Shown here: positions 9,002 to 19,236 of the stretch, one piece after another
How positions within the stretch are numbered: the first letter of the stretch is position 1
Layout: each line of letters begins with the position of its first letter
IMG/VR virus record: IMGVR_UViG_3300018494_004239
DNA length: 20,000 bases
Origin: an uncultured virus (IMG/VR IMGVR_UViG_3300018494_004239)
Taxonomy: Duplodnaviria; Heunggongvirae; Uroviricota; Caudoviricetes
Reading direction: 5' to 3' (one strand)
Notes under the pieces: generated by a model
What the model saw: the letters and a program-made list of their open reading frames with translations, nothing else
What the model was told of the DNA's origin: nothing
Databases searched by the model: none
Made by a program: the position numbers and the translations under genes

Positions 9002-9078
9002 TGGTCGGGATGACAGGACTCGAACCTGCGGCCTCATGGTCCCAAACCACGCGTTCTTCCAAACTGAACTACATCCCG
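9002..9078 (-). tRNA. tRNA-Pro(UGG)
   Basis: Full cloverleaf CGGGATG...CGTGG-TTTGGGA-CCATG...GGTTCGAGTCC...CATCCCG-ACCA. Own promoter TTGACA-17-TATAAT (9120-9092) and a terminator near 8975-8996. Confidence 0.97.
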
Positions 9079-9792: not shown

Positions 9793-10386
9793 TTAGATGA
9801 GAATTGCATCCTCATGGAAGATGGTTTGCCCAGCATTTTGCATTACCTGCTCAAAACCGAATTTTCTGCAAAAATCATTTGGAACATTTAACATAAAGTC
9901 TCCGATGTTGAAACAATCGCCATTGTCGGCGAGAACACGCTTGCCATCTTCGGTGGTTACAAATTCTGCACTTGCCTTTTTGATTGCATCTTCCATATCA
10001 AAATTTGCATCCTCGGAGGTTTGACGAAGTAAATACGGAATTACCGTAATGCCATCGGCATTCATATTGGTTGCAAATACATAATGTAGTGCTTTCAAAT
10101 TAGTATCATCGGGTTCTGCAAAGACAGTTCCGTCTTCATAGAACTCAAATTCATTGGCAAGTTCCTTCTTAATGTTTTCTCCGTTGATTTCGTGCAGATG
10201 CTGACGGAAGAACCACGGAGTTTTTAATTCTTCACATTTTGCGATGGCCTTCTGCACATCCTCTCTGTCTGCGAACAGAACAGATGCTGTTTCCTCGATG
10301 AAGGAAAGATAATCGTCGTATGCTTTTTCCTGTGCTTCTTCCGTCAACTCGTAAAAGTTATAAACGGTCATTCTGACTTCTCTCAT
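9793..10386 (-). CDS. Hypothetical protein
   Basis: 197-aa ORF whose start overlaps the upstream stop (TAATG); terminator near 9759-9786. Confidence 0.8.
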   Translation of the reverse strand: MREVRMTVYNFYELTEEAQEKAYDDYLSFIEETASVLFADREDVQKAIAKCEELKTPWFFRQHLHEINGENIKKELANEFEFYEDGTVFAEPDDTNLKALHYVFATNMNADGITVIPYLLRQTSEDANFDMEDAIKKASAEFVTTEDGKRVLADNGDCFNIGDFMLNVPNDFCRKFGFEQVMQNAGQTIFHEDAILI

Positions 10387-11195
10387 TATCCTTCACACTC
10401 CTCATACATTTCGAAAATCTTTTTGATGTGGTTTTTATCCATGCTCTTACCTGCGGTATTGAGCATAAGGAAATATCTCAAAAGTTCTTTCTTGCTGGAC
10501 TTGGAAACCTCTGCAACAGCAATACACTTATCGCAGAACCAGTTCTGGTCTCTTACGGAAAGGTCATTGAAATACTTTCCCTTGTAGGGGAATCGGTTCT
10601 CGTAGTAGTCCAAGATTGCACGCAATCTCTGCTTTCCATCAAGAATTTCATAGAGATATTCGTCGCCGTAATCGTTGTGGACAAAGACGAACTTACCGAT
10701 ATCGATGTTGGAAAAAATGGAATCTACAAGTGCAACCTTGTCTTCCAATGTCCAACAATAATCTCTCTGATATTCGGGGTCCATATCTGTGCCGAAGAAA
10801 TACACATTTCCGAACAGAGAACCCAAACTTCTTTGGGAGAAGGACAGATGGATATTATCGTTCTTGATGAGAGATTCTGTATTGGTGGTCTTGGGACGAA
10901 CATCCATCCACCATGCATATCTCTCTTGTCCATCTTCATAGGTGATAATTTCTTCGTATTTGCCGTTCACATACTGCTTGTTCTTGATTTCGGCAGAATA
11001 CCCCAAGAGGTACAGTTTGCCATCAGCAAGAACTTCCTTGATAAAAACCTTTGCGAGATGACCAATGGCAACTTGGTCACCGACATTGAATCTGTAAGTG
11101 GGTTCGGGAATAAACTTCATTCGAGAAAGCCTATCCTTCAAATTACTTGCGAGAATCTCTTCTCTTGTAGGGGGTGCAGTCTTTTTTCTTGCCAT
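10386..11195 (-). CDS. DUF262 (ParB/Srx-fold, GmrS-like) domain protein with N-terminal extension
   Basis: PEYQRDYCW, LVDSIF, EILDGKQRL and F..LN..GK are the characteristic DUF262 motifs. Confidence 0.85.
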   Translation of the reverse strand: MARKKTAPPTREEILASNLKDRLSRMKFIPEPTYRFNVGDQVAIGHLAKVFIKEVLADGKLYLLGYSAEIKNKQYVNGKYEEIITYEDGQERYAWWMDVRPKTTNTESLIKNDNIHLSFSQRSLGSLFGNVYFFGTDMDPEYQRDYCWTLEDKVALVDSIFSNIDIGKFVFVHNDYGDEYLYEILDGKQRLRAILDYYENRFPYKGKYFNDLSVRDQNWFCDKCIAVAEVSKSSKKELLRYFLMLNTAGKSMDKNHIKKIFEMYEECEG

Positions 11196-16560: not shown

Positions 16561-17973
16561 ATGCGAAAAACAAAAATAGTTTGCACAATTGGTCCTGCAA
16601 GCGATAGTGTTGAAATGTTGAGAAAATTGATGAAAAATGGTATGAATGTTGCCAGACTTAATTTTTCTCACGGTACACACGAAAGTCATCAAAAAACGAT
16701 TGATAATTTCAAAAAGGCACGAGAAATGGTTGGCGTGCCATGTGCTTTATTGCTTGATACAAAAGGTCCAGAAATCAGAATTGGTAAATTCGAGAGTGAC
16801 GAAGGCATTGAGTTATATGCGGGAAATACTTTTTCCTTAACAACAGAAAATATTATCGGGGATGACCGTATTGTCAGTGTAACATATCCCGAACTACATA
16901 CTCAAATTAAAAAAGGGCAAAAAGTTTTAATTGATGACGGTCGTATTGAACTTATCGTTAAATATATTAAAGACAGGGAAATTGTTTGCGATGTTATTGT
17001 TGGTGGAAAGTTAACAAACAACAAGGGCATCAATCTTCCTAAATGTCATATTGAAATGGAATATTTGAGCGAAAAAGATAAAGCAGATATTTTATTTGGC
17101 ATCCAAAACGATATCGATTTTGTCGCCGCATCGTTTGTCCGTAATGTTGATGATGTTATAAAAATAAGAAGATTTTTAGACATTAATGGTGGTAAAAATA
17201 TCAGAATTATTTCCAAAATTGAAAATCTTGAAGGTGTAGAAAACTATGACGAGATTCTTGAAGTATCGGGTGGTATTATGGTTGCTCGTGGGGATATGGG
17301 TGTTGAAGTGGAATATGAAAAAATTCCTGGTATTCAAAAGAATTTTATCAGAAAATGCAGATGTAGTGGTAAGATGGTTATTACTGCAACACAGATGCTC
17401 GAAAGCATGACAGAAAAAACTATGCCAACGAGAGCAGAAATTACAGATGTTGCAAATGCCGTTTTTGATGGTACATCGGCAGTTATGCTATCTGGCGAAA
17501 CCGCCATGGGCAAACATCCAGTACTCGTTGTTCAGACAATGGATAAAATTGTCCGTCAAGCAGAAAAAGATAATGAGGAAATGAAAGAGTTTGTCTATGA
17601 AGTGTCGGAATTTGATAAGACAAATGCAATTTGCGATGCTGCTTGTACTACTGCGAAAGATATTGGCGCTGATGCTATTGTTGCGGTTACTCTTTCTGGT
17701 GAAACTGCAAGACTTGTATCAAAATTCAGACCAAAAGAAATGATTATTGCTGCAACACCTTCTATTAAAACTTATCACCAGTTGGCATTATCTTGGGGTG
17801 TTTGTCCAATTCTTACATCAAAGCAAACATCTGAAAGCACACTTATTGATGATGCTATTTATAGAGCAAAATCTGAAAATATCCTAAAACAGGGAGACAT
17901 TGTAGTTGTTACGGCAGGAGTACCGCTCGATATTTCTGGAACTACAAACTTGTTAAGAATTGTCAATGTATAA
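16561..17973 (+). CDS. pyk: Pyruvate kinase
   Basis: RKTKIVCTIGP, ARLNFSHG, DTKGPEIR, IISKIEN, MVARGDMGVE, ATQMLESM and AVMLSGETA motifs. Confidence 0.98.
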   Translation: MRKTKIVCTIGPASDSVEMLRKLMKNGMNVARLNFSHGTHESHQKTIDNFKKAREMVGVPCALLLDTKGPEIRIGKFESDEGIELYAGNTFSLTTENIIGDDRIVSVTYPELHTQIKKGQKVLIDDGRIELIVKYIKDREIVCDVIVGGKLTNNKGINLPKCHIEMEYLSEKDKADILFGIQNDIDFVAASFVRNVDDVIKIRRFLDINGGKNIRIISKIENLEGVENYDEILEVSGGIMVARGDMGVEVEYEKIPGIQKNFIRKCRCSGKMVITATQMLESMTEKTMPTRAEITDVANAVFDGTSAVMLSGETAMGKHPVLVVQTMDKIVRQAEKDNEEMKEFVYEVSEFDKTNAICDAACTTAKDIGADAIVAVTLSGETARLVSKFRPKEMIIAATPSIKTYHQLALSWGVCPILTSKQTSESTLIDDAIYRAKSENILKQGDIVVVTAGVPLDISGTTNLLRIVNV

Positions 17974-17978
17974 TATAG

Positions 17979-18015
17979 AAAAAAGTCCGTTGAATAATCA
18001 ACGGACTTTTCTTTT
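17979..18015. terminator. Bidirectional terminator shared by pyk and the convergent RNA operon
   Basis: AAAAGTCCGTTGA-ataa-TCAACGGACTTTT. Confidence 0.9.
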
Positions 18016-18375
18016 GGTACAAAAGGTGTGTTGCTACACCAAAGGGTCAGAGGGCACATATGGCATTGTAAGTTAGCTTTTACCGAACATTGCATCGCTT
18101 ACTTAATTCCCAGCGTCTCTCGCGTTTTGGAAACTTACCATATTACACACTACTTGTGGTCTCGCATCACACAGCGCAAGACGCTCCACAGTATTTCAAC
18201 TGCTTCCTAAACTATTGCTGTATTGTGACCGTTCTGCTTTCGTTTCCCTGTAGTTTGTACGGCGACCTCGGTTGGCCTGACCCGCCTTTTCTTGAACTCC
18301 ACGTTGCGCAAATGCAGGTTCTTCTACTCCCCACTCTTTAAAGGATGGCTACTCTTAAGCCTACCTTCCTTTTGT
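18015..18375 (-). ncRNA. 361-nt CCA-ended RNA containing a split mimic of the 23S rRNA uL11-binding domain (H43/H44)
   Basis: The 5' part GGAAGGUAGGCUUAAGAGUAGCCAUCCUUUAAAGAGU and the 3' part GUGUAGCAACACACC align without gaps to E. coli 23S 1054-1090 and 1091-1105. Closing helix ACAAAAGG/CCUUUUGU followed by ACCA. Confidence 0.85.
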
Positions 18376-18440
18376 TGGTGTGCTGGACTGGTATCGACCC
18401 AATCATGCTTTTTCGCGTCTTCCATTTAAACGACAGCACA
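18376..18440 (-). ncRNA. tRNA-like element lacking a normal anticodon arm
   Basis: GUGCUG/CAGCAC-ACCA acceptor, D-arm GUUU-AAAUGGA-AGAC, T-like arm GAUUGG-GUCGAUA-CCAGUC. The anticodon arm is reduced to GC-GAAAAA-GC. Confidence 0.65.
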
Positions 18441-18445
18441 TATTT

Positions 18446-18508
18446 GTTAGAGGCAGGTTGGGGTTTCACCAACACCGAGTTTGTATATCGAACAGTGACT
18501 CCGCCCCT
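18446..18508 (-). ncRNA. Degenerate tRNA-like element (acceptor plus T-like arm, no CCA)
   Basis: GGGGCGG/CUGCCUC 7-bp stem stacked on GUUGG-UGAAACC-CCAAC. Confidence 0.45.
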
Positions 18509-18618
18509 CGATTGCTTCGGGTTAACCACATCTTCGTTCGCGCGATACGGAGATGTTTTCTGCGGGTTATTTAAGCATTTCGCACTCGTCACAATCTCTA
18601 TTTAGGGCTACTGCCTCT

Positions 18619-18736
18619 TGGTGCATCTGGTTGGACTCGAACCAACACCGCAATTGCCAACCTGTCTTGCTTCGATATGACTTCTCGAAGTAGTTACTGG
18701 TATTTACAACCTCGTTTTCCAGCACGATACAGATAC
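18619..18736 (-). ncRNA. 118-nt tRNA-like element with a greatly extended anticodon arm
   Basis: Acceptor GUAUCUG/CAGAUGC-ACCA, D-like arm UCGU-GCUGGAAA-ACGA, canonical T arm GUUGG-UUCGAGU-CCAAC. An ~60-nt hairpin replaces the anticodon arm. Confidence 0.75.
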
Positions 18737-18741
18737 ATAAA

Positions 18742-19012
18742 AATAAAACAGTTTGTGATTTCCGCTATTTCAAGCGCCTGCGATAGTGGTAGATTATATC
18801 CATCATTTACAGCCGAGCAGTCGATACTTGGTGTTTCGCCCAAGTCTAATCTCGTTTTCGGGTTTCATTCGGTTTTCCCGACTCTTTTCCCGTCTCTCTC
18901 CATTCTTAATAAGGAGTCCCACATTTCCTTGCAGTCTCTCTGCAAGTCCTACTTGAAGTCAGTCTACTGTCGAAGCAGATGTTTCATTAAACCCTTTCGG
19001 AACTGTTTTATT
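18742..19012 (-). ncRNA. 271-nt multi-hairpin RNA closed by a perfect 12-bp helix
   Basis: Termini AAUAAAACAGUU/AACUGUUUUAUU. Internal stems CUUGCAG/CUGCAAG, ACUUGG/CCAAGU, UCGG/CCGA and UCUGCU/AGUAGA. Confidence 0.65.
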
Positions 19013-19013
19013 A

Positions 19014-19089
19014 TGGTGCCCGTGGAGGGGCTCGAACCCTCGACACCCAGATTAAAAGTCTGGTGCTCTTCCAACTGAGCTACACGAGC
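19014..19089 (-). tRNA. tRNA-Lys(UUU)
   Basis: GCTCGTG-TA-GCTCAGTTGGAAGAGC-A-CCAGA-CTTTTAA-TCTGG...GGTTCGAGCCC...CACGGGC-ACCA, 76 nt. Confidence 0.97.
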
Positions 19090-19111
19090 ATGTGTCTCAT
19101 TGACTGTCGTT

Positions 19112-19140
19112 ATTATACCACAGATAAACCTTAATGTCAA
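19112..19140 (-). promoter_or_regulatory. Perfect sigma-A promoter of the tRNA-Lys/ncRNA operon
   Basis: TTGACA (19140-19135)-17-TATAAT (19117-19112) with extended TG. Confidence 0.9.
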
Positions 19141-19236
19141 CTACTTTTTCGAAAAAAGTTAAAGAAAAAATGCACAAAATCCAATATAGAAAACATTGAA
19201 AATTGTGCATAGTTTTTAGATGTTTTTGAATAAAAC

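What the first reader, a model, noticed from the sequence alone, without database searches (positions are those of the whole stretch)
18015..18375. Free-standing CCA-ended RNA that rebuilds the ribosomal uL11/GTPase-associated centre, with tertiary-level covariation
Seen: 18369-18333 and 18039-18025 (minus strand) align without gaps to E. coli 23S 1054-1090 and 1091-1105. They are extended by an 8-bp closing helix (ACAAAAGG/CCUUUUGU) and a 3' ACCA, with no other rRNA sequence around them. Changes against E. coli are compensatory: U1058-A1080 to G-C, A1054-U1105 to G-C, A1090-U1101 to U-A. The base triple C1072.C1092-G1099 has switched in concert to U.U-A. U1060/A1088, U1082/A1086, G1071.G1091-C1100, A1067 and A1095 are kept, and position 1061 is A. 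Established knowledge: these are the tertiary contacts of the uL11-binding domain, A1067/A1095 form the thiostrepton and factor-contact site, and U1061A stabilises the fold. Inference: this is a selected rRNA mimic rather than a decayed rRNA fragment. It could bind or sequester uL11, translational GTPases or RelA, or act as a decoy for rRNA-targeting toxins or thiopeptides, and it may be processed like a tRNA through its CCA end.
Basis: partly seen in the sequence, partly recalled or inferred. Interest (0 to 1): 0.93.

Follow-up and report, generated by a model that had tools for sequence, protein, structure and literature searches.

The report
Free-standing copy of ribosome's uL11-binding RNA
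A gut bacterium transcribes, in a small tRNA operon, a 360-base RNA whose two ends rebuild the part of 23S ribosomal RNA that binds protein uL11 and meets the translation GTPases; it belongs to a large, apparently undescribed RNA family otherwise found in phage tRNA clusters.

Summary
Minus strand 18369-18333 and 18039-18025 align without gaps to 23S 1054-1090 and 1091-1105. An 8-bp non-rRNA helix closes them, ACCA and a terminator follow, and no other rRNA is nearby. It is not chance or decay. My scan of viral contigs gave 120 loci (84 unique) with the same design; one of them is a true 23S. Across 73 phage members the closing helix, pair 1058-1080, pair 1092-1099, the base triple 1072:1092-1099 and the stem at the foot of the insert all covary. 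A UUUG linker and a U1090-A1101 pair mark the family. The window has every one of these marks. Its 293-nt insert is homologous to the inserts of a phage sub-class that carries a sarcin-ricin-loop look-alike; the window has lost that motif. RNA-library contigs from three studies cover the RNA unspliced. Corrections: G1058-C1080 is simply the clostridial rRNA state, A1061 is not selected, and the CCA end is not a family trait (5 of 73). Function is untested; I favour an off-ribosome decoy of the uL11/factor site. Rfam and nine literature searches show no description. This scan had already noted the family on phage DNA; this copy sits in bacterial-looking DNA.

The parts
19112..19140 (-). sigma-70-type promoter of the RNA operon (TTGACA, 17 nt, TG-TATAAT)
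   Evidence: 12 of 12 hexamer matches with an extended -10 TG. It is the only strong promoter-like site upstream of the unit.
19014..19089 (-). tRNA-Lys(UUU), first gene of the unit, CCA encoded
   Evidence: ARAGORN; Rfam tRNA, 70.3 bits
18797..18992 (-). second stable RNA of unknown kind ('RNA-2')
   Evidence: whole RNA-library contigs of 195 and 187 nt in X15 and X16 (two studies) cover 18797/18806-18992, and both stop at 18992. The fold has z -2.09, with 1 of 200 shuffles as stable. No Rfam family matches.
18617..18736 (-). tRNA-like element with acceptor, D and T arms, a roughly 50-nt extended anticodon arm and a 3' ACCA
   Evidence: Rfam tRNA 27.4 bits (gathering score 29) over 18622-18736 with a 50-nt insertion. 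Fold. ARAGORN does not call it.
18376..18440 (-). short tRNA-like element (7-bp acceptor, D-like hairpin, T arm with loop GUCGAUA, 3' ACCA) that abuts the mimic
   Evidence: Read from the sequence. The MFE fold gives acceptor plus T arm, z -1.89, with 12 of 200 shuffles as stable. The Rfam tRNA model does not detect it, so this is an inference.
18368..18375 (-). 5' strand of closing helix P1 (ACAAAAGG); takes the place of H42
   Evidence: In L036, A18375>G keeps a G-U pair. The family P1 covaries.
18333..18369 (-). 5' half of the mimic: 23S 1054-1090 (H43 hairpin, junction 1082-1090)
   Evidence: The model R1 partial hit 18308-18375 scores 39.7 bits.
18040..18332 (-). 293-nt inserted domain between 1090 and 1091, ending in the family linker UUUG (18043-18040). 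Helices: foot stem G18332-G18330 with C18044-C18046; 18327-18324 with 18253-18250; 18221-18217 with 18175-18171; 18249-18246 with 18054-18051.
   Evidence: Four fully compensatory pair changes separate the window from L036. The insert is homologous to the inserts of phage loci L050/L085/L065 and L172-L205.
18107..18133 (-). hairpin UUUCC-AAAACGCGAGAGACGCU-GGGAA, positional equivalent of the sarcin-ricin-loop look-alike of the phage sub-class, followed by the conserved UUAAG
   Evidence: The hairpin has the same length, and the flanking stem and GAAUUAAG are kept. Only 7 of 12 core letters match AGUACGAGAGGA, and the bulged-G motif is lost.
18025..18039 (-). 3' half of the mimic: 23S 1091-1105 (H44 hairpin, A1095 at 18035)
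   Evidence: There are 0 differences from L036 over 18039-18019.
18019..18026 (-). 3' strand of closing helix P1 (CCUUUUGU)
18015..18018 (-). ACCA tail
   Evidence: ACCA also ends tRNA-Lys and the two tRNA-like elements. It is not a family trait.
17979..18012 (-). intrinsic terminator, shared back-to-back with pyk
   Evidence: 15 pairs followed by a T run. The differences from L036 lie in the loop only.

Best explanation
What it is. The RNA at about 18375-18015 is a member of a large family of free-standing RNAs, otherwise borne by phages, that rebuild the uL11-binding GTPase-associated centre (GAC) of 23S rRNA (H43, H44, tip of H42). A private closing helix replaces H42. A variable domain is inserted after U1090 through a short stem and a UUUG linker.

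How it is made (mostly inferred). It is the last gene of a strongly promoted, terminator-ended operon: tRNA-Lys, an unknown RNA, two tRNA-like punctuation elements, then the mimic. The tRNA-processing enzymes probably cut it out. The helix-plus-ACCA end probably sets its 3' end.

How it works (inferred, not shown). It folds by itself into the compact GAC tertiary structure and acts away from the ribosome as an imitation of that site. It first captures free uL11, the known tight ligand of the isolated rRNA domain (recalled knowledge). It then offers the uL11/A1067/A1095 docking surface to proteins that normally meet it on the ribosome. In this way it titrates uL11 or a factor that depends on it, such as a translational GTPase or RelA. 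In the phage relatives of this copy a second hairpin imitates the sarcin-ricin loop, which suggests that the whole GTPase docking site is being imitated.
For: Family membership:
- Pattern scan of viral contigs: 120 loci, 84 unique. One (L142) is true 23S, and L128 is a compact mimic without an insert. In the great majority of the rest the sequence diverges from 23S right after AAAGAGU, at 1090, as in the window.
- The window shows P1, the insert foot GGG/CCC, UUUG, U1090-A1101 and U1072:U1092-A1099.

Selection on the fold, in 73 phage members:
- P1 extension positions 1-7 are paired in 57-66 of 73 against about 30 when shuffled (0 of 2000 shuffles reach the observed value).
- Pair 1058-1080 is Watson-Crick in 73 of 73, with 4 pair types.
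- Pair 1092-1099 is paired in 73 of 73.
- The triple 1072:1092-1099 is C:CG 55, U:UA 15, U:UG 2, C:UA 1 (mutual information 0.709 against 0.023; 0 of 5000).
- The first three pairs of the insert foot are paired in 72, 72 and 67 of 73.
- The tool count on 18 members gives 92.1% of cells paired against 67.1% shuffled, and a covariation score of 0.685 against 0.187 shuffled and at most 0.178 with slid partners.
- These tertiary contacts are those of the real GAC (PMC2952862, passages read).

Strain comparison (L036, 95% identical). The module has 2 changes in 64 nt, both pair-preserving. The insert has 19 in 293, and 8 of them form 4 compensatory pairs.

Expression:
- Contigs from RNA libraries of 4 runs (3 studies) lie on 18002-18359.
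- There is no joint across the insert, and no cover on the pyk end or on 18360-18796.

tRNA linkage:
- 52 of 84 phage loci have tRNAs within 600 nt.
- All 133 of those tRNAs are on the mimic's strand.
- In 19 loci a tRNA ends within 11 nt of P1.

Precedent that isolated pieces bind factors. EF-G and IF2 bind a sarcin-ricin-loop oligonucleotide. [quoted passage not shown]

Sarcin-ricin look-alike. It is present in 16 of 16 unique sub-class members that have a findable 3' half.
Against: - No binding or phenotype has been tested. The partner is a guess.
- The window itself has lost the sarcin-ricin motif (7 of 12 letters).
- A1067 is G in 10 of 16 sub-class members, so not every factor or drug contact is kept across the family.
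- The conserved UUUG could pair with A1088-U1090 and alter the junction. I could not decide this.
- My family statistics use rows chosen by a pattern and a regex that fix many positions, and 8 of 84 unique loci were dropped for lack of a regex-matched 3' half. Only the free positions carry weight.
- The covariance model R1 aligned only the window's 5' half (39.7 bits), below the scores it gave to true 23S (52-59 bits). R1 therefore does not separate long-insert members from rRNA.
- RNA contigs stop at 18358/18359, 16 nt short of the predicted 5' end, in three runs. This is unexplained.
- A stoichiometric decoy must be abundant, and contig depths cannot show that.
- The context looks chromosomal and not phage-like, so the phage-benefit logic may not carry over to this copy.
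Confidence: 0.55

Rival explanations
1. Decoy or immunity RNA against agents that attack the GAC (and the sarcin-ricin loop) of the ribosome. Such agents include RNA ADP-ribosyltransferase toxins, rRNA nucleases or glycosidases, and thiopeptides. The free copy would soak up the agent so that the ribosomes are spared.
For: - An interbacterial toxin that ADP-ribosylates H44 at 1095-1098 of the GAC exists (Tre23, PMC8661411, passages read).
- That paper also lists thiopeptides as binders of H43/H44, and VapC, MazF and ricin as agents that attack 23S.
- The family keeps H44 and H43 with their tertiary fold.
- A sub-class adds a sarcin-ricin look-alike.
- A chromosomal-looking copy in a gut bacterium fits an immunity role better than a phage take-over role.
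Against: - No toxin, immunity or thiopeptide gene lies in the window.
- Positions 1096 and 1097 in the H44 loop vary freely, and A1067 is G in 10 of 16 of the sub-class. That would weaken thiopeptide capture.
- A catalytic toxin is hard to titrate with a substrate decoy.
- Nothing has been tested.
Confidence: 0.15
2. The GAC module is only a sturdy, nuclease-resistant folding and processing platform, comparable to a tRNA scaffold. The variable insert is the working part.
For: - Inserts range from 27 to 364 nt (median 139) and fall into 68 unrelated lineages among 75.
- Some inserts have conserved modules of their own. GGUAAGG occurs in 16 of 68 lineages, and one sub-class has a sarcin-ricin look-alike.
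- In the window the insert is a structured RNA under selection (4 compensatory pairs).
Against: - The one element common to all members is the GAC copy, and its tertiary triple covaries.
- Members with almost no insert exist (27 nt in L068, none in L128).
- A generic scaffold would not need to keep rRNA-specific unpaired nucleotides.
Confidence: 0.18
3. An intron or intervening sequence inside a captured piece of rRNA. The 293 nt would be spliced out or cut out to leave a small RNA of about 68 nt.
For: The insert follows a U and ends in G. It sits inside otherwise collinear rRNA-like sequence.
Against: - No group I or II intron, nor any other Rfam family, matches the window or the 20 phage loci tested.
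- RNA-library contigs run unbroken across both borders (18035-18358; 18053-18359), and no joint was seen.
- The borders are a covarying stem plus a conserved UUUG linker, not a P1/P10 guide pairing.
Confidence: 0.03
4. A decayed 23S fragment or a chance look-alike, or a cis-regulatory rRNA mimic that controls a ribosomal-protein gene.
For: - BLAST similarity to 23S alone is at chance level for the space searched.
- The single-sequence fold energy is ordinary.
Against: - The family covaries.
- The closing helix is private, non-rRNA sequence.
- The unit has its own promoter and terminator.
- The RNA is expressed as a discrete species.
- No ribosomal-protein gene lies downstream. The next gene is a convergent pyruvate kinase.
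Confidence: 0.02

Closest known systems
GTPase-associated centre of bacterial 23S rRNA (H42 tip, H43, H44; E. coli 1051-1108; the uL11-binding 'thiostrepton' domain)
   Same: Shared features:
- The same three-way junction.
- The H43 loop with A1067 and the H44 loop with A1095.
- U1060/A1088 and U1082/A1086.
- G1071 with G1091-C1100.
- An isosteric 1072:1092-1099 triple.

The window matches a clostridial 23S at 40 of 52 positions and the family consensus at 44 of 52.
   Different: - It is not part of an rRNA gene.
- H42 is replaced by an 8-bp private helix, so the uL10 site is absent.
- A 293-nt domain is inserted after 1090 with a UUUG linker.
- U1090-A1101 is a Watson-Crick pair, where E. coli has A-U and the clostridial 23S has U opposite U.
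- The RNA ends in ACCA and a terminator.
Phage-borne GAC-mimic RNAs noted earlier in this scan and collected here (for example Pseudomonas phage pf16 between tRNA-Asn and tRNA-Pro; Xanthomonas phage XacN1)
   Same: All family marks are shared: P1, the insert site, the foot stem, the UUUG linker, U1090-A1101, the covarying triple, and linkage to tRNA genes on the same strand.
   Different: - The context here looks like a bacterial chromosome (pyk, ligA, coaE; no phage genes).
- The element directly upstream is a reduced tRNA-like element rather than a tRNA.
- The window has a 3' ACCA, seen within 5 nt of P1 in only 5 of 73 phage members.
- No copy was found in 401 or 151 sampled Clostridia genomes.
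rRNA-mimicking leaders of ribosomal-protein operons (autoregulatory binding sites in mRNA)
   Same: Both are non-ribosomal RNAs that imitate an rRNA protein-binding site.
   Different: The leaders act in cis on an adjacent ribosomal-protein gene and usually copy only the local helix. This RNA is a separate stable RNA with the whole tertiary domain, and no ribosomal-protein gene is nearby.
[quoted passage not shown]
   Same: The proposed logic is the same: a free nucleic-acid copy of a macromolecular docking site binds the protein that normally docks there. Isolated SRL RNA binds EF-G and IF2 (PMC3496166).
   Different: There is no sequence or structural kinship with 6S RNA (what 6S RNA imitates is recalled, not from a call). 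The oligonucleotides are laboratory constructs, whereas this is a natural, conserved gene family. Binding has not been shown here.

Membership tests
Phage-type GAC-mimic RNA family (undescribed; defined operationally) | H43 hairpin and junction 1057-1090 in rRNA-like sequence, diverging from 23S right after AAAGAGU (1090) | tested here: met
   the window matches the scan pattern and diverges at 18332.
Phage-type GAC-mimic RNA family (undescribed; defined operationally) | Private closing helix of about 9 bp in place of H42 | tested here: met
   8 bp, 18375-18368 with 18026-18019. In the family, positions 1-7 of the extension are paired above chance and position 8 is not.
Phage-type GAC-mimic RNA family (undescribed; defined operationally) | Insert entered through a covarying foot stem and left through a UUUG linker before G1091 | tested here: met
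   G18332-G18330 pair with C18044-C18046, and UUUG lies at 18043-18040. The linker is TTTG in 61 of 73 family members.
Phage-type GAC-mimic RNA family (undescribed; defined operationally) | U1090-A1101 pair and an isosteric 1072:1092-1099 triple | tested here: met
   U18333-A18029, and U18351 with U18038-A18031. Family counts are 69 of 73 for the pair and C:CG 55 / U:UA 15 for the triple.
Phage-type GAC-mimic RNA family (undescribed; defined operationally) | Full-length match to the family covariance model R1 | tested here: inconclusive
   The window gives only partial hits of 39.7 and 16 bits, because the model cannot span a 293-nt insert. Long-insert phage members behave alike (L050/L085 41.6 bits), and true 23S scores 52-59 bits.
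Phage-type GAC-mimic RNA family (undescribed; defined operationally) | tRNA genes on the same strand close by | tested here: met
   tRNA-Lys lies in the same unit. A tRNA-like element ends at 18376, next to P1. In the family, 133 of 133 neighbouring tRNAs are on the same strand.
23S rRNA gene or gene fragment | Collinear rRNA sequence beyond the GAC; Rfam LSU match at the gathering score | tested here: not met
   only 1054-1105 is alike, and the LSU model scores 12.9 bits against a gathering score of 50.
tRNA / tRNA-like RNA | Cloverleaf or acceptor-T minihelix with a 3' NCCA | tested here: inconclusive
   No tRNA call at the locus. However, an 8-bp helix is followed by ACCA. In the real GAC, H42 stacks coaxially on H44 (PMC2952862), which would give a minihelix-like stack here.
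Group I intron in rRNA-like exons | Intron core (P3-P8) and a spliced product | tested here: not met
   No Rfam intron match. RNA contigs are unspliced and no joint was seen.
Known large bacterial or phage ncRNAs (ROOL, GOLLD, OLE, raiA, tmRNA, RNase P) | Match to the Rfam model | tested here: not met
   none, even at E up to 10.
Sarcin-ricin-loop mimic (feature of the long-insert phage sub-class) | Bulged-G motif AGUA/GA plus a GNRA tetraloop closed by C-G, in a hairpin at the conserved place in the insert | tested here: not met
   The window hairpin 18133-18107 keeps the C-GAGA-G letters and the flanking stem but not the AGUA/GA motif (7 of 12 letters). Among phage sub-class members, 12 of 16 carry the exact 12-mer.
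Ribosomal-protein autoregulatory leader | Lies in the 5' UTR of a ribosomal-protein gene | tested here: not met
   A terminator follows the RNA and the next gene is a convergent pyruvate kinase.

The most novel reading that the evidence does not exclude
Phages, and at least one gut bacterium, carry a natural 'ribosome in pieces'. It would be a stable RNA that reconstructs the docking site of the translational GTPases away from the ribosome: always the uL11-binding centre and, in a megaphage-related sub-class, the sarcin-ricin loop as well. Cells or phages would use it to capture uL11 together with a GTPase-class factor, RelA, or a ribosome-directed toxin, and so reset translation control or stringent signalling during conflict. 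The window's copy would be a domesticated or immunity version that has dropped the sarcin-ricin part.
Probability: 0.3. Interest if true: 0.93.

Novelty: categorically new. Interest (0 to 1): 0.86.

Why it matters
Free-standing, trans-encoded copies of a functional rRNA domain are not a recognised class of RNA gene. Known rRNA mimics are cis-acting leaders of ribosomal-protein operons.

This family is large: about 120 stretches in IMG/VR for one strict pattern. It sits unannotated in cultured phages (pf16, XacN1, GAP32, fHe-Yen9-03) and in Lak megaphages. Its tertiary base triple covaries, so the uL11-binding fold itself is under selection.

If it titrates uL11, a translational GTPase, RelA or a ribosome-directed toxin, it would be a new way for mobile elements, and here apparently a bacterium, to act on translation.

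It would also give structural biology a natural, self-folding GAC (and GAC plus sarcin-ricin loop) construct.

The window adds three points:
- a bacterial-looking context,
- evidence of expression,
- a link to the sub-class that carries the sarcin-ricin look-alike.

Tried and rejected
Searches and tests that led nowhere:
- Whole-genome look-up: no genome is held.
- RNA homologues beside pyk in 6 related genome loci: none. Nearest two genomes: none.
- 399 sampled Clostridia genomes by BLAST: only the true 23S, tRNAs and chance hits in coding DNA.
- Exact 19-mer in viral contigs: 0.
- The pyk relative at 82% identity (L037) has other genes downstream, so synteny gave only one variant, L036.
- Single-sequence folding: no signal (z -0.08).
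- Covariance model R1: it could not span the 293-nt insert, so it gives no clean score for the window.
- R1 over 151 genomes of the order: only hits of 68-69 nt at 42-52 bits, read as true 23S. A long-insert mimic would give a similar partial hit, so this is weak evidence of absence.
- Sub-class junction pattern: 0 of 401 Clostridia genomes.
- Rfam E-value search of L050 and L065: no LSU hit for either the GAC or the sarcin-ricin look-alike, so no independent support from that tool.
- Window insert against phage inserts by BLAST: only the ends match. The homology showed only in alignment.
- Literature: 9 full-text searches found no description of such RNAs. Subscription journals and bioRxiv supplements were not searched.

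Readings considered and dropped:
- A tmRNA-like reading of 18976-18617 (UUCGAC near an alternative acceptor strand): neither Rfam tmRNA nor ARAGORN supports it.
- A reading of the spliced product as a tRNA: the T loop would have 6 nt and the junction would fall inside the T stem.

Parts of the operon without RNA-contig cover (18360-18796, and the last 16 nt at the 5' end of the mimic) are not evidence of absence.
Full report
**The locus**

The window is low-GC DNA (0.30-0.42 per kb) that carries pyruvate kinase, NAD-dependent DNA ligase and dephospho-CoA kinase.
- The nearest pyruvate kinases are in Clostridia metagenome-assembled genomes, at 59% identity.
- No phage structural family was found in 14 ORFs, and 9 ORFs had no NCBIfam match.
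- The pyruvate kinase has no relative in the viral collection.
- No genome is held for the window.

So the context looks chromosomal, although the contig's origin is not known to me.

Between pyk and the next ORF lies a GC-rich kilobase (0.456) with no long ORF. On the minus strand it begins with a perfect TTGACA-17-TGnTATAAT promoter (19140-19112) and ends with a 15-bp terminator (18012-17979). From 5' to 3' it holds:
- tRNA-Lys(UUU) at 19089-19014;
- an unknown structured RNA;
- a tRNA-like element with a roughly 50-nt extended anticodon arm, 18736-18617 (Rfam tRNA 27.4 bits);
- a spacer;
- a reduced tRNA-like element, 18440-18376 (acceptor, D-like hairpin, T arm, ACCA; this is my reading and Rfam does not support it);
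- directly abutting that element, the RNA in question.

**The observation**

- 18369-18333 corresponds to 23S 1054-1090. It matches E. coli at 27 of 37 and a clostridial 23S at 30 of 37.
- 18039-18025 corresponds to 1091-1105, matching at 9 and 10 of 15.
- The ends pair as ACAAAAGG/CCUUUUGU. Two of these 8 pairs are 1054-1105 and 1055-1104.
- ACCA follows.
- Nothing else in 17900-19200 resembles 23S.
- Rfam offers only a 12.9-bit local match to the GAC segment of an LSU model.

G1058-C1080 and GU at 1089-1090 are the ordinary clostridial rRNA state.

Taken alone, the similarity is not beyond chance. In a search of 399 genomes the 23S hit (E 3.4e-4 per genome) stood beside equally strong chance hits in coding DNA. 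The fold energy is also ordinary (z -0.08).

**The family**

- A degenerate pattern for H43 plus the junction found 120 stretches in the viral collection, 84 of them unique.
- One is a true 23S (L142) and one is a compact copy without an insert (L128).
- In the great majority of the others the rRNA-like sequence stops exactly after AAAGAGU (1090), as in the window.
- It resumes 27-364 nt later (median 139) with UUUG followed by an H44 look-alike and the complement of the 5' flank.
- Eight unique loci had no 3' half that my regex could find, and I dropped them from the counts.

Many positions are fixed by my pattern and regex and say nothing. The free positions are informative. In 73 phage members:
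- The closing helix is paired at seven positions beyond 1054-1105/1055-1104, in 57-66 of 73 against about 30 when shuffled (0 of 2000).
- 1058-1080 is Watson-Crick in 73 of 73, with four pair types.
- 1092-1099 is paired in 73 of 73.
- The tertiary triple 1072:1092-1099 switches in concert: C:CG 55, U:UA 15, U:UG 2, C:UA 1 (mutual information 0.709 against 0.023; 0 of 5000).
- The first three pairs of the insert's foot stem are kept in 72, 72 and 67 of 73, with many pair types.
- U1090-A1101 (69 of 73) and the UUUG linker (61 of 73) are marks that real 23S lacks.

The tool count on an 18-member alignment agrees: 92.1% of cells are paired against 67.1% shuffled, and the covariation score is 0.685 against 0.187 shuffled and at most 0.178 for slid partners.

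The contacts involved (C1072/C1092, C1072-G1099, G1071/G1091, A1090-U1101, H42 stacked on H44) are those described for the real GAC (PMC2952862, passages read).

The window has every mark: P1, foot stem GGG/CCC, UUUG, U-A at 1090-1101 and the U:U-A triple.

A covariance model built from 18 short-insert members scored as follows:

| Target | Score (bits) |
|---|---|
| phage pf16 | 94.8 |
| phage XacN1 | 87.5 |
| 54 of the 84 loci | at least 78 |
| true 23S | 52-59 |
| window (5' half only) | 39.7 |
| long-insert phage members L050/L085 | 41.6 |

The model cannot span long inserts, so for the window this test is inconclusive.

**Linkage to tRNAs**

Of the 84 unique phage loci, 52 have tRNAs within 600 nt. 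All 133 of those tRNAs lie on the mimic's strand. In 19 loci a tRNA ends within 11 nt of the closing helix.

In phage pf16 the RNA fills the unannotated gap between tRNA-Asn and tRNA-Pro. In 12 of the 14 records from the cultured-phage collection that matched, nothing is annotated under the match. One carries a 'hypothetical protein', and two 3-kb Staphylococcus records are probably rRNA.

The window repeats this design with a tRNA-like element in place of the tRNA.

A CCA end is not a family trait (5 of 73 within 5 nt of P1). In this operon, however, tRNA-Lys, both tRNA-like elements and the mimic all end in ACCA after a helix. I therefore think tRNA-type end trimming is used here. That is inference.

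**Selection within the lineage**

A metagenome contig (L036) carries the same pyk (99%) and the RNA at 95% identity. By region:
- The GAC module and P1 have 2 changes in 64 nt: A18375>G gives G-U, and C18348>U gives G-U at 1063-1075.
- The insert has 19 changes in 293 nt. Eight of them are four fully compensatory pairs: 18326/18251, 18325/18252, 18220/18172 and 18217/18175.
- The terminator changes lie in its loop.

The insert is therefore a structured RNA in its own right.

A relative with 82% identical pyk (L037) has other genes at this place. No copy was found in 401 (pattern) or 151 (model) sampled Clostridia genomes. The locus is accessory.

**Expression**

Twenty public runs hold part of the stretch. 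All are animal gut or faeces metagenomes apart from one labelled only 'metagenome' and one small-share freshwater run that I did not lay. I laid four RNA libraries from three studies.
- Whole contigs cover 18053-18359 (X15), 18035-18358 (X17), 18184-18359 (X16) and 18002-18154 (X18).
- They run unbroken across both borders of the insert, and no joint was reported. The unspliced RNA is what accumulates.
- There is no cover on the end of pyk or on 18360-18796. That argues against DNA carry-over, with the caution that contigs cannot prove absence.
- A second RNA, 18797/18806-18992, is covered in two studies, and both contigs stop at 18992.
- Three runs stop at 18358/18359, 16 nt short of the predicted 5' end. 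I cannot explain this.
- One contig runs past the ACCA to 18002.

**The insert and a sarcin-ricin look-alike**

The inserts of the family are mostly unrelated (68 lineages among 75). The window's insert, however, aligns with those of large phage contigs L050/L085 and L065. Shared features are:
- the start GAG-YR-GAAG;
- a helix that covaries GUAG/CUAC, GCGG/CCGC and GUGG/CCAU;
- a long-range AGGG/CCCU helix;
- a hairpin followed by GAAUUAAG.

A pattern for this start found 41 viral loci. They break down as follows:

| Group | Loci |
|---|---|
| no GAC half upstream (chance matches) | 11 |
| duplicates | 9 |
| divergent members without a findable 3' half | 5 |
| unique members with both halves | 16 |

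In all 16 unique members the hairpin is a look-alike of the sarcin-ricin loop:
- 12 have exactly AGUACGAGAGGA, the E. coli 2654-2665 sequence (checked).
- 2 have a GGGA tetraloop.
- 2 have AGUACAAGCGGA.

The flanking stem covaries. In the first collection the motif occurred in 3 of 85 inserts and in 0 of 12,210 nt of reverse-complement control.

All 15 Lak megaphage records hold a related RNA with variant motifs, AUUACGAGAGGA and AUUACAAGAGGA in the two I read.

The window's hairpin (18133-18107) has the same length and keeps the stem and the C-GAGA-G letters. It has lost the bulged-G motif (7 of 12 letters).

So the window is a member of the sub-class without the motif. Whether the motif is a true imitation of the sarcin-ricin loop or a generic S-turn/GNRA module is open.

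**Mechanism**

Shown:
- a conserved, expressed, self-closed copy of the GAC fold;
- linkage to tRNA transcription units.

Inferred:
- It works away from the ribosome by offering that surface.
- The isolated rRNA domain is known to bind uL11 tightly and thiostrepton (recalled).
- Isolated sarcin-ricin RNA binds EF-G and IF2, and the classic 'ribosome-in-pieces' work is cited for both domains (PMC3496166, passages).
- I therefore favour capture of uL11, and with it a factor that docks there (0.55 including the identity claim).

Rivals:
- A decoy for GAC-directed toxins or thiopeptides is a real alternative. Tre23 ADP-ribosylates H44 at 1095-1098 (PMC8661411, passages).
- The GAC module may be a mere scaffold for the insert.
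- Intron, relic and cis-regulator readings are contradicted.

Points against my reading:
- nothing has been tested;
- A1067 is G in 10 of 16 sub-class members;
- 1096 and 1097 vary;
- the UUUG linker could repair with A1088-U1090;
- the bacterial context weakens any phage-centred rationale.

**Novelty**

Rfam 15 has no such family. Nine full-text searches found no description; subscription journals and supplements were not covered. Cultured phage records leave the RNA unannotated.

The scan itself had noted the family on phage DNA. This report adds:
- a bacterial-looking copy;
- expression data;
- family-wide statistics made here;
- the sub-class with the sarcin-ricin look-alike, including Lak megaphages.

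Noticed in passing
window 18797-18992 (-): A second discrete RNA lies in the same operon. Whole RNA-library contigs from two studies cover it and both stop at 18992. The fold has z -2.09. It has no Rfam family and no similarity to the flanks of the phage loci.
   Followed up: partly
window 18617-18736 (-): A tRNA-like gene with acceptor, D and T arms and ACCA, whose anticodon arm is extended by about 50 nt (terminal hairpin CUUCGA/UCGAAG). It scores 27.4 bits on Rfam tRNA, just under the gathering score, and ARAGORN does not call it.
   Followed up: partly
window 18376-18440 (-): A reduced tRNA-like element (7-bp acceptor, D-like hairpin with GG, 2-bp stub instead of an anticodon arm, T arm, ACCA) ends one base before the mimic's closing helix. 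It looks like a processing signal. Together with the other tRNA and tRNA-like elements it punctuates the operon.
   Followed up: partly
L172-L205, L050, L085, L065/L181 (viral contigs); insert positions about 206-223: The long-insert sub-class of the family carries a hairpin identical to the sarcin-ricin loop core (AGUACGAGAGGA) in 12 of 16 unique members, with GNRA or other variants in 4. These RNAs therefore imitate both rRNA elements of the GTPase docking site.
   Followed up: partly
L213 (Lak-B3), L214 (Lak-A1); 15 Lak records: All 15 Lak megaphage records hold a related RNA, with an altered H43 (GGGGUUUUGAGUGCCC or GGGGAGUAGAGUUCCC) and a variant of the sarcin-ricin look-alike (AUUACGAGAGGA / AUUACAAGAGGA). 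My regex found no 3' half within the fetched stretch.
   Followed up: partly
L172-L205: The equivalent of A1067, the thiostrepton and factor contact, is G in 10 of 16 unique members of the sub-class. The window keeps A.
   Followed up: no
L065 719-807 (-): Upstream of the tRNA that precedes the mimic lies an 89-nt element that matches only the tRNA-like domain of tmRNA (Rfam tmRNA 41.2 bits, gathering score 47), with the mRNA-like part missing.
   Followed up: no
inserts of L039, L042, L072, L125, L135 and others: A module CACCCCG-GNRA-like loop-CGGUAAGG recurs in otherwise unrelated inserts; the 7-mer GGTAAGG is in 16 of 68 lineages. A second module, CAGGGGAAGGACAAGU, is shared by L048, L051, L096 and L137, with a near variant in L078.
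   Followed up: no
window 18358-18359: RNA-library contigs of three runs (two studies) end here, inside H43 and 16 nt short of the predicted 5' end, with no loose end. Possible causes are a coverage taper, a nick or a reverse-transcription stop.
   Followed up: no
runs X17 (record 10) and X18 (record 13), laid on window 18332-18366 and 18028-18068: Other RNA contigs share only the GAC 5' half or only the 3' border with the window and then run on into unlike sequence. This suggests that further family members are present in gut RNA libraries, one of them at depth 97.7.
   Followed up: no
window 10386-11195 (-) and 9002-9078 (-): A GmrSD_N-domain gene (a restriction-type defence domain) and a lone tRNA-Pro lie about 8-9 kb from the RNA operon. 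No link to the RNA was examined.
   Followed up: no
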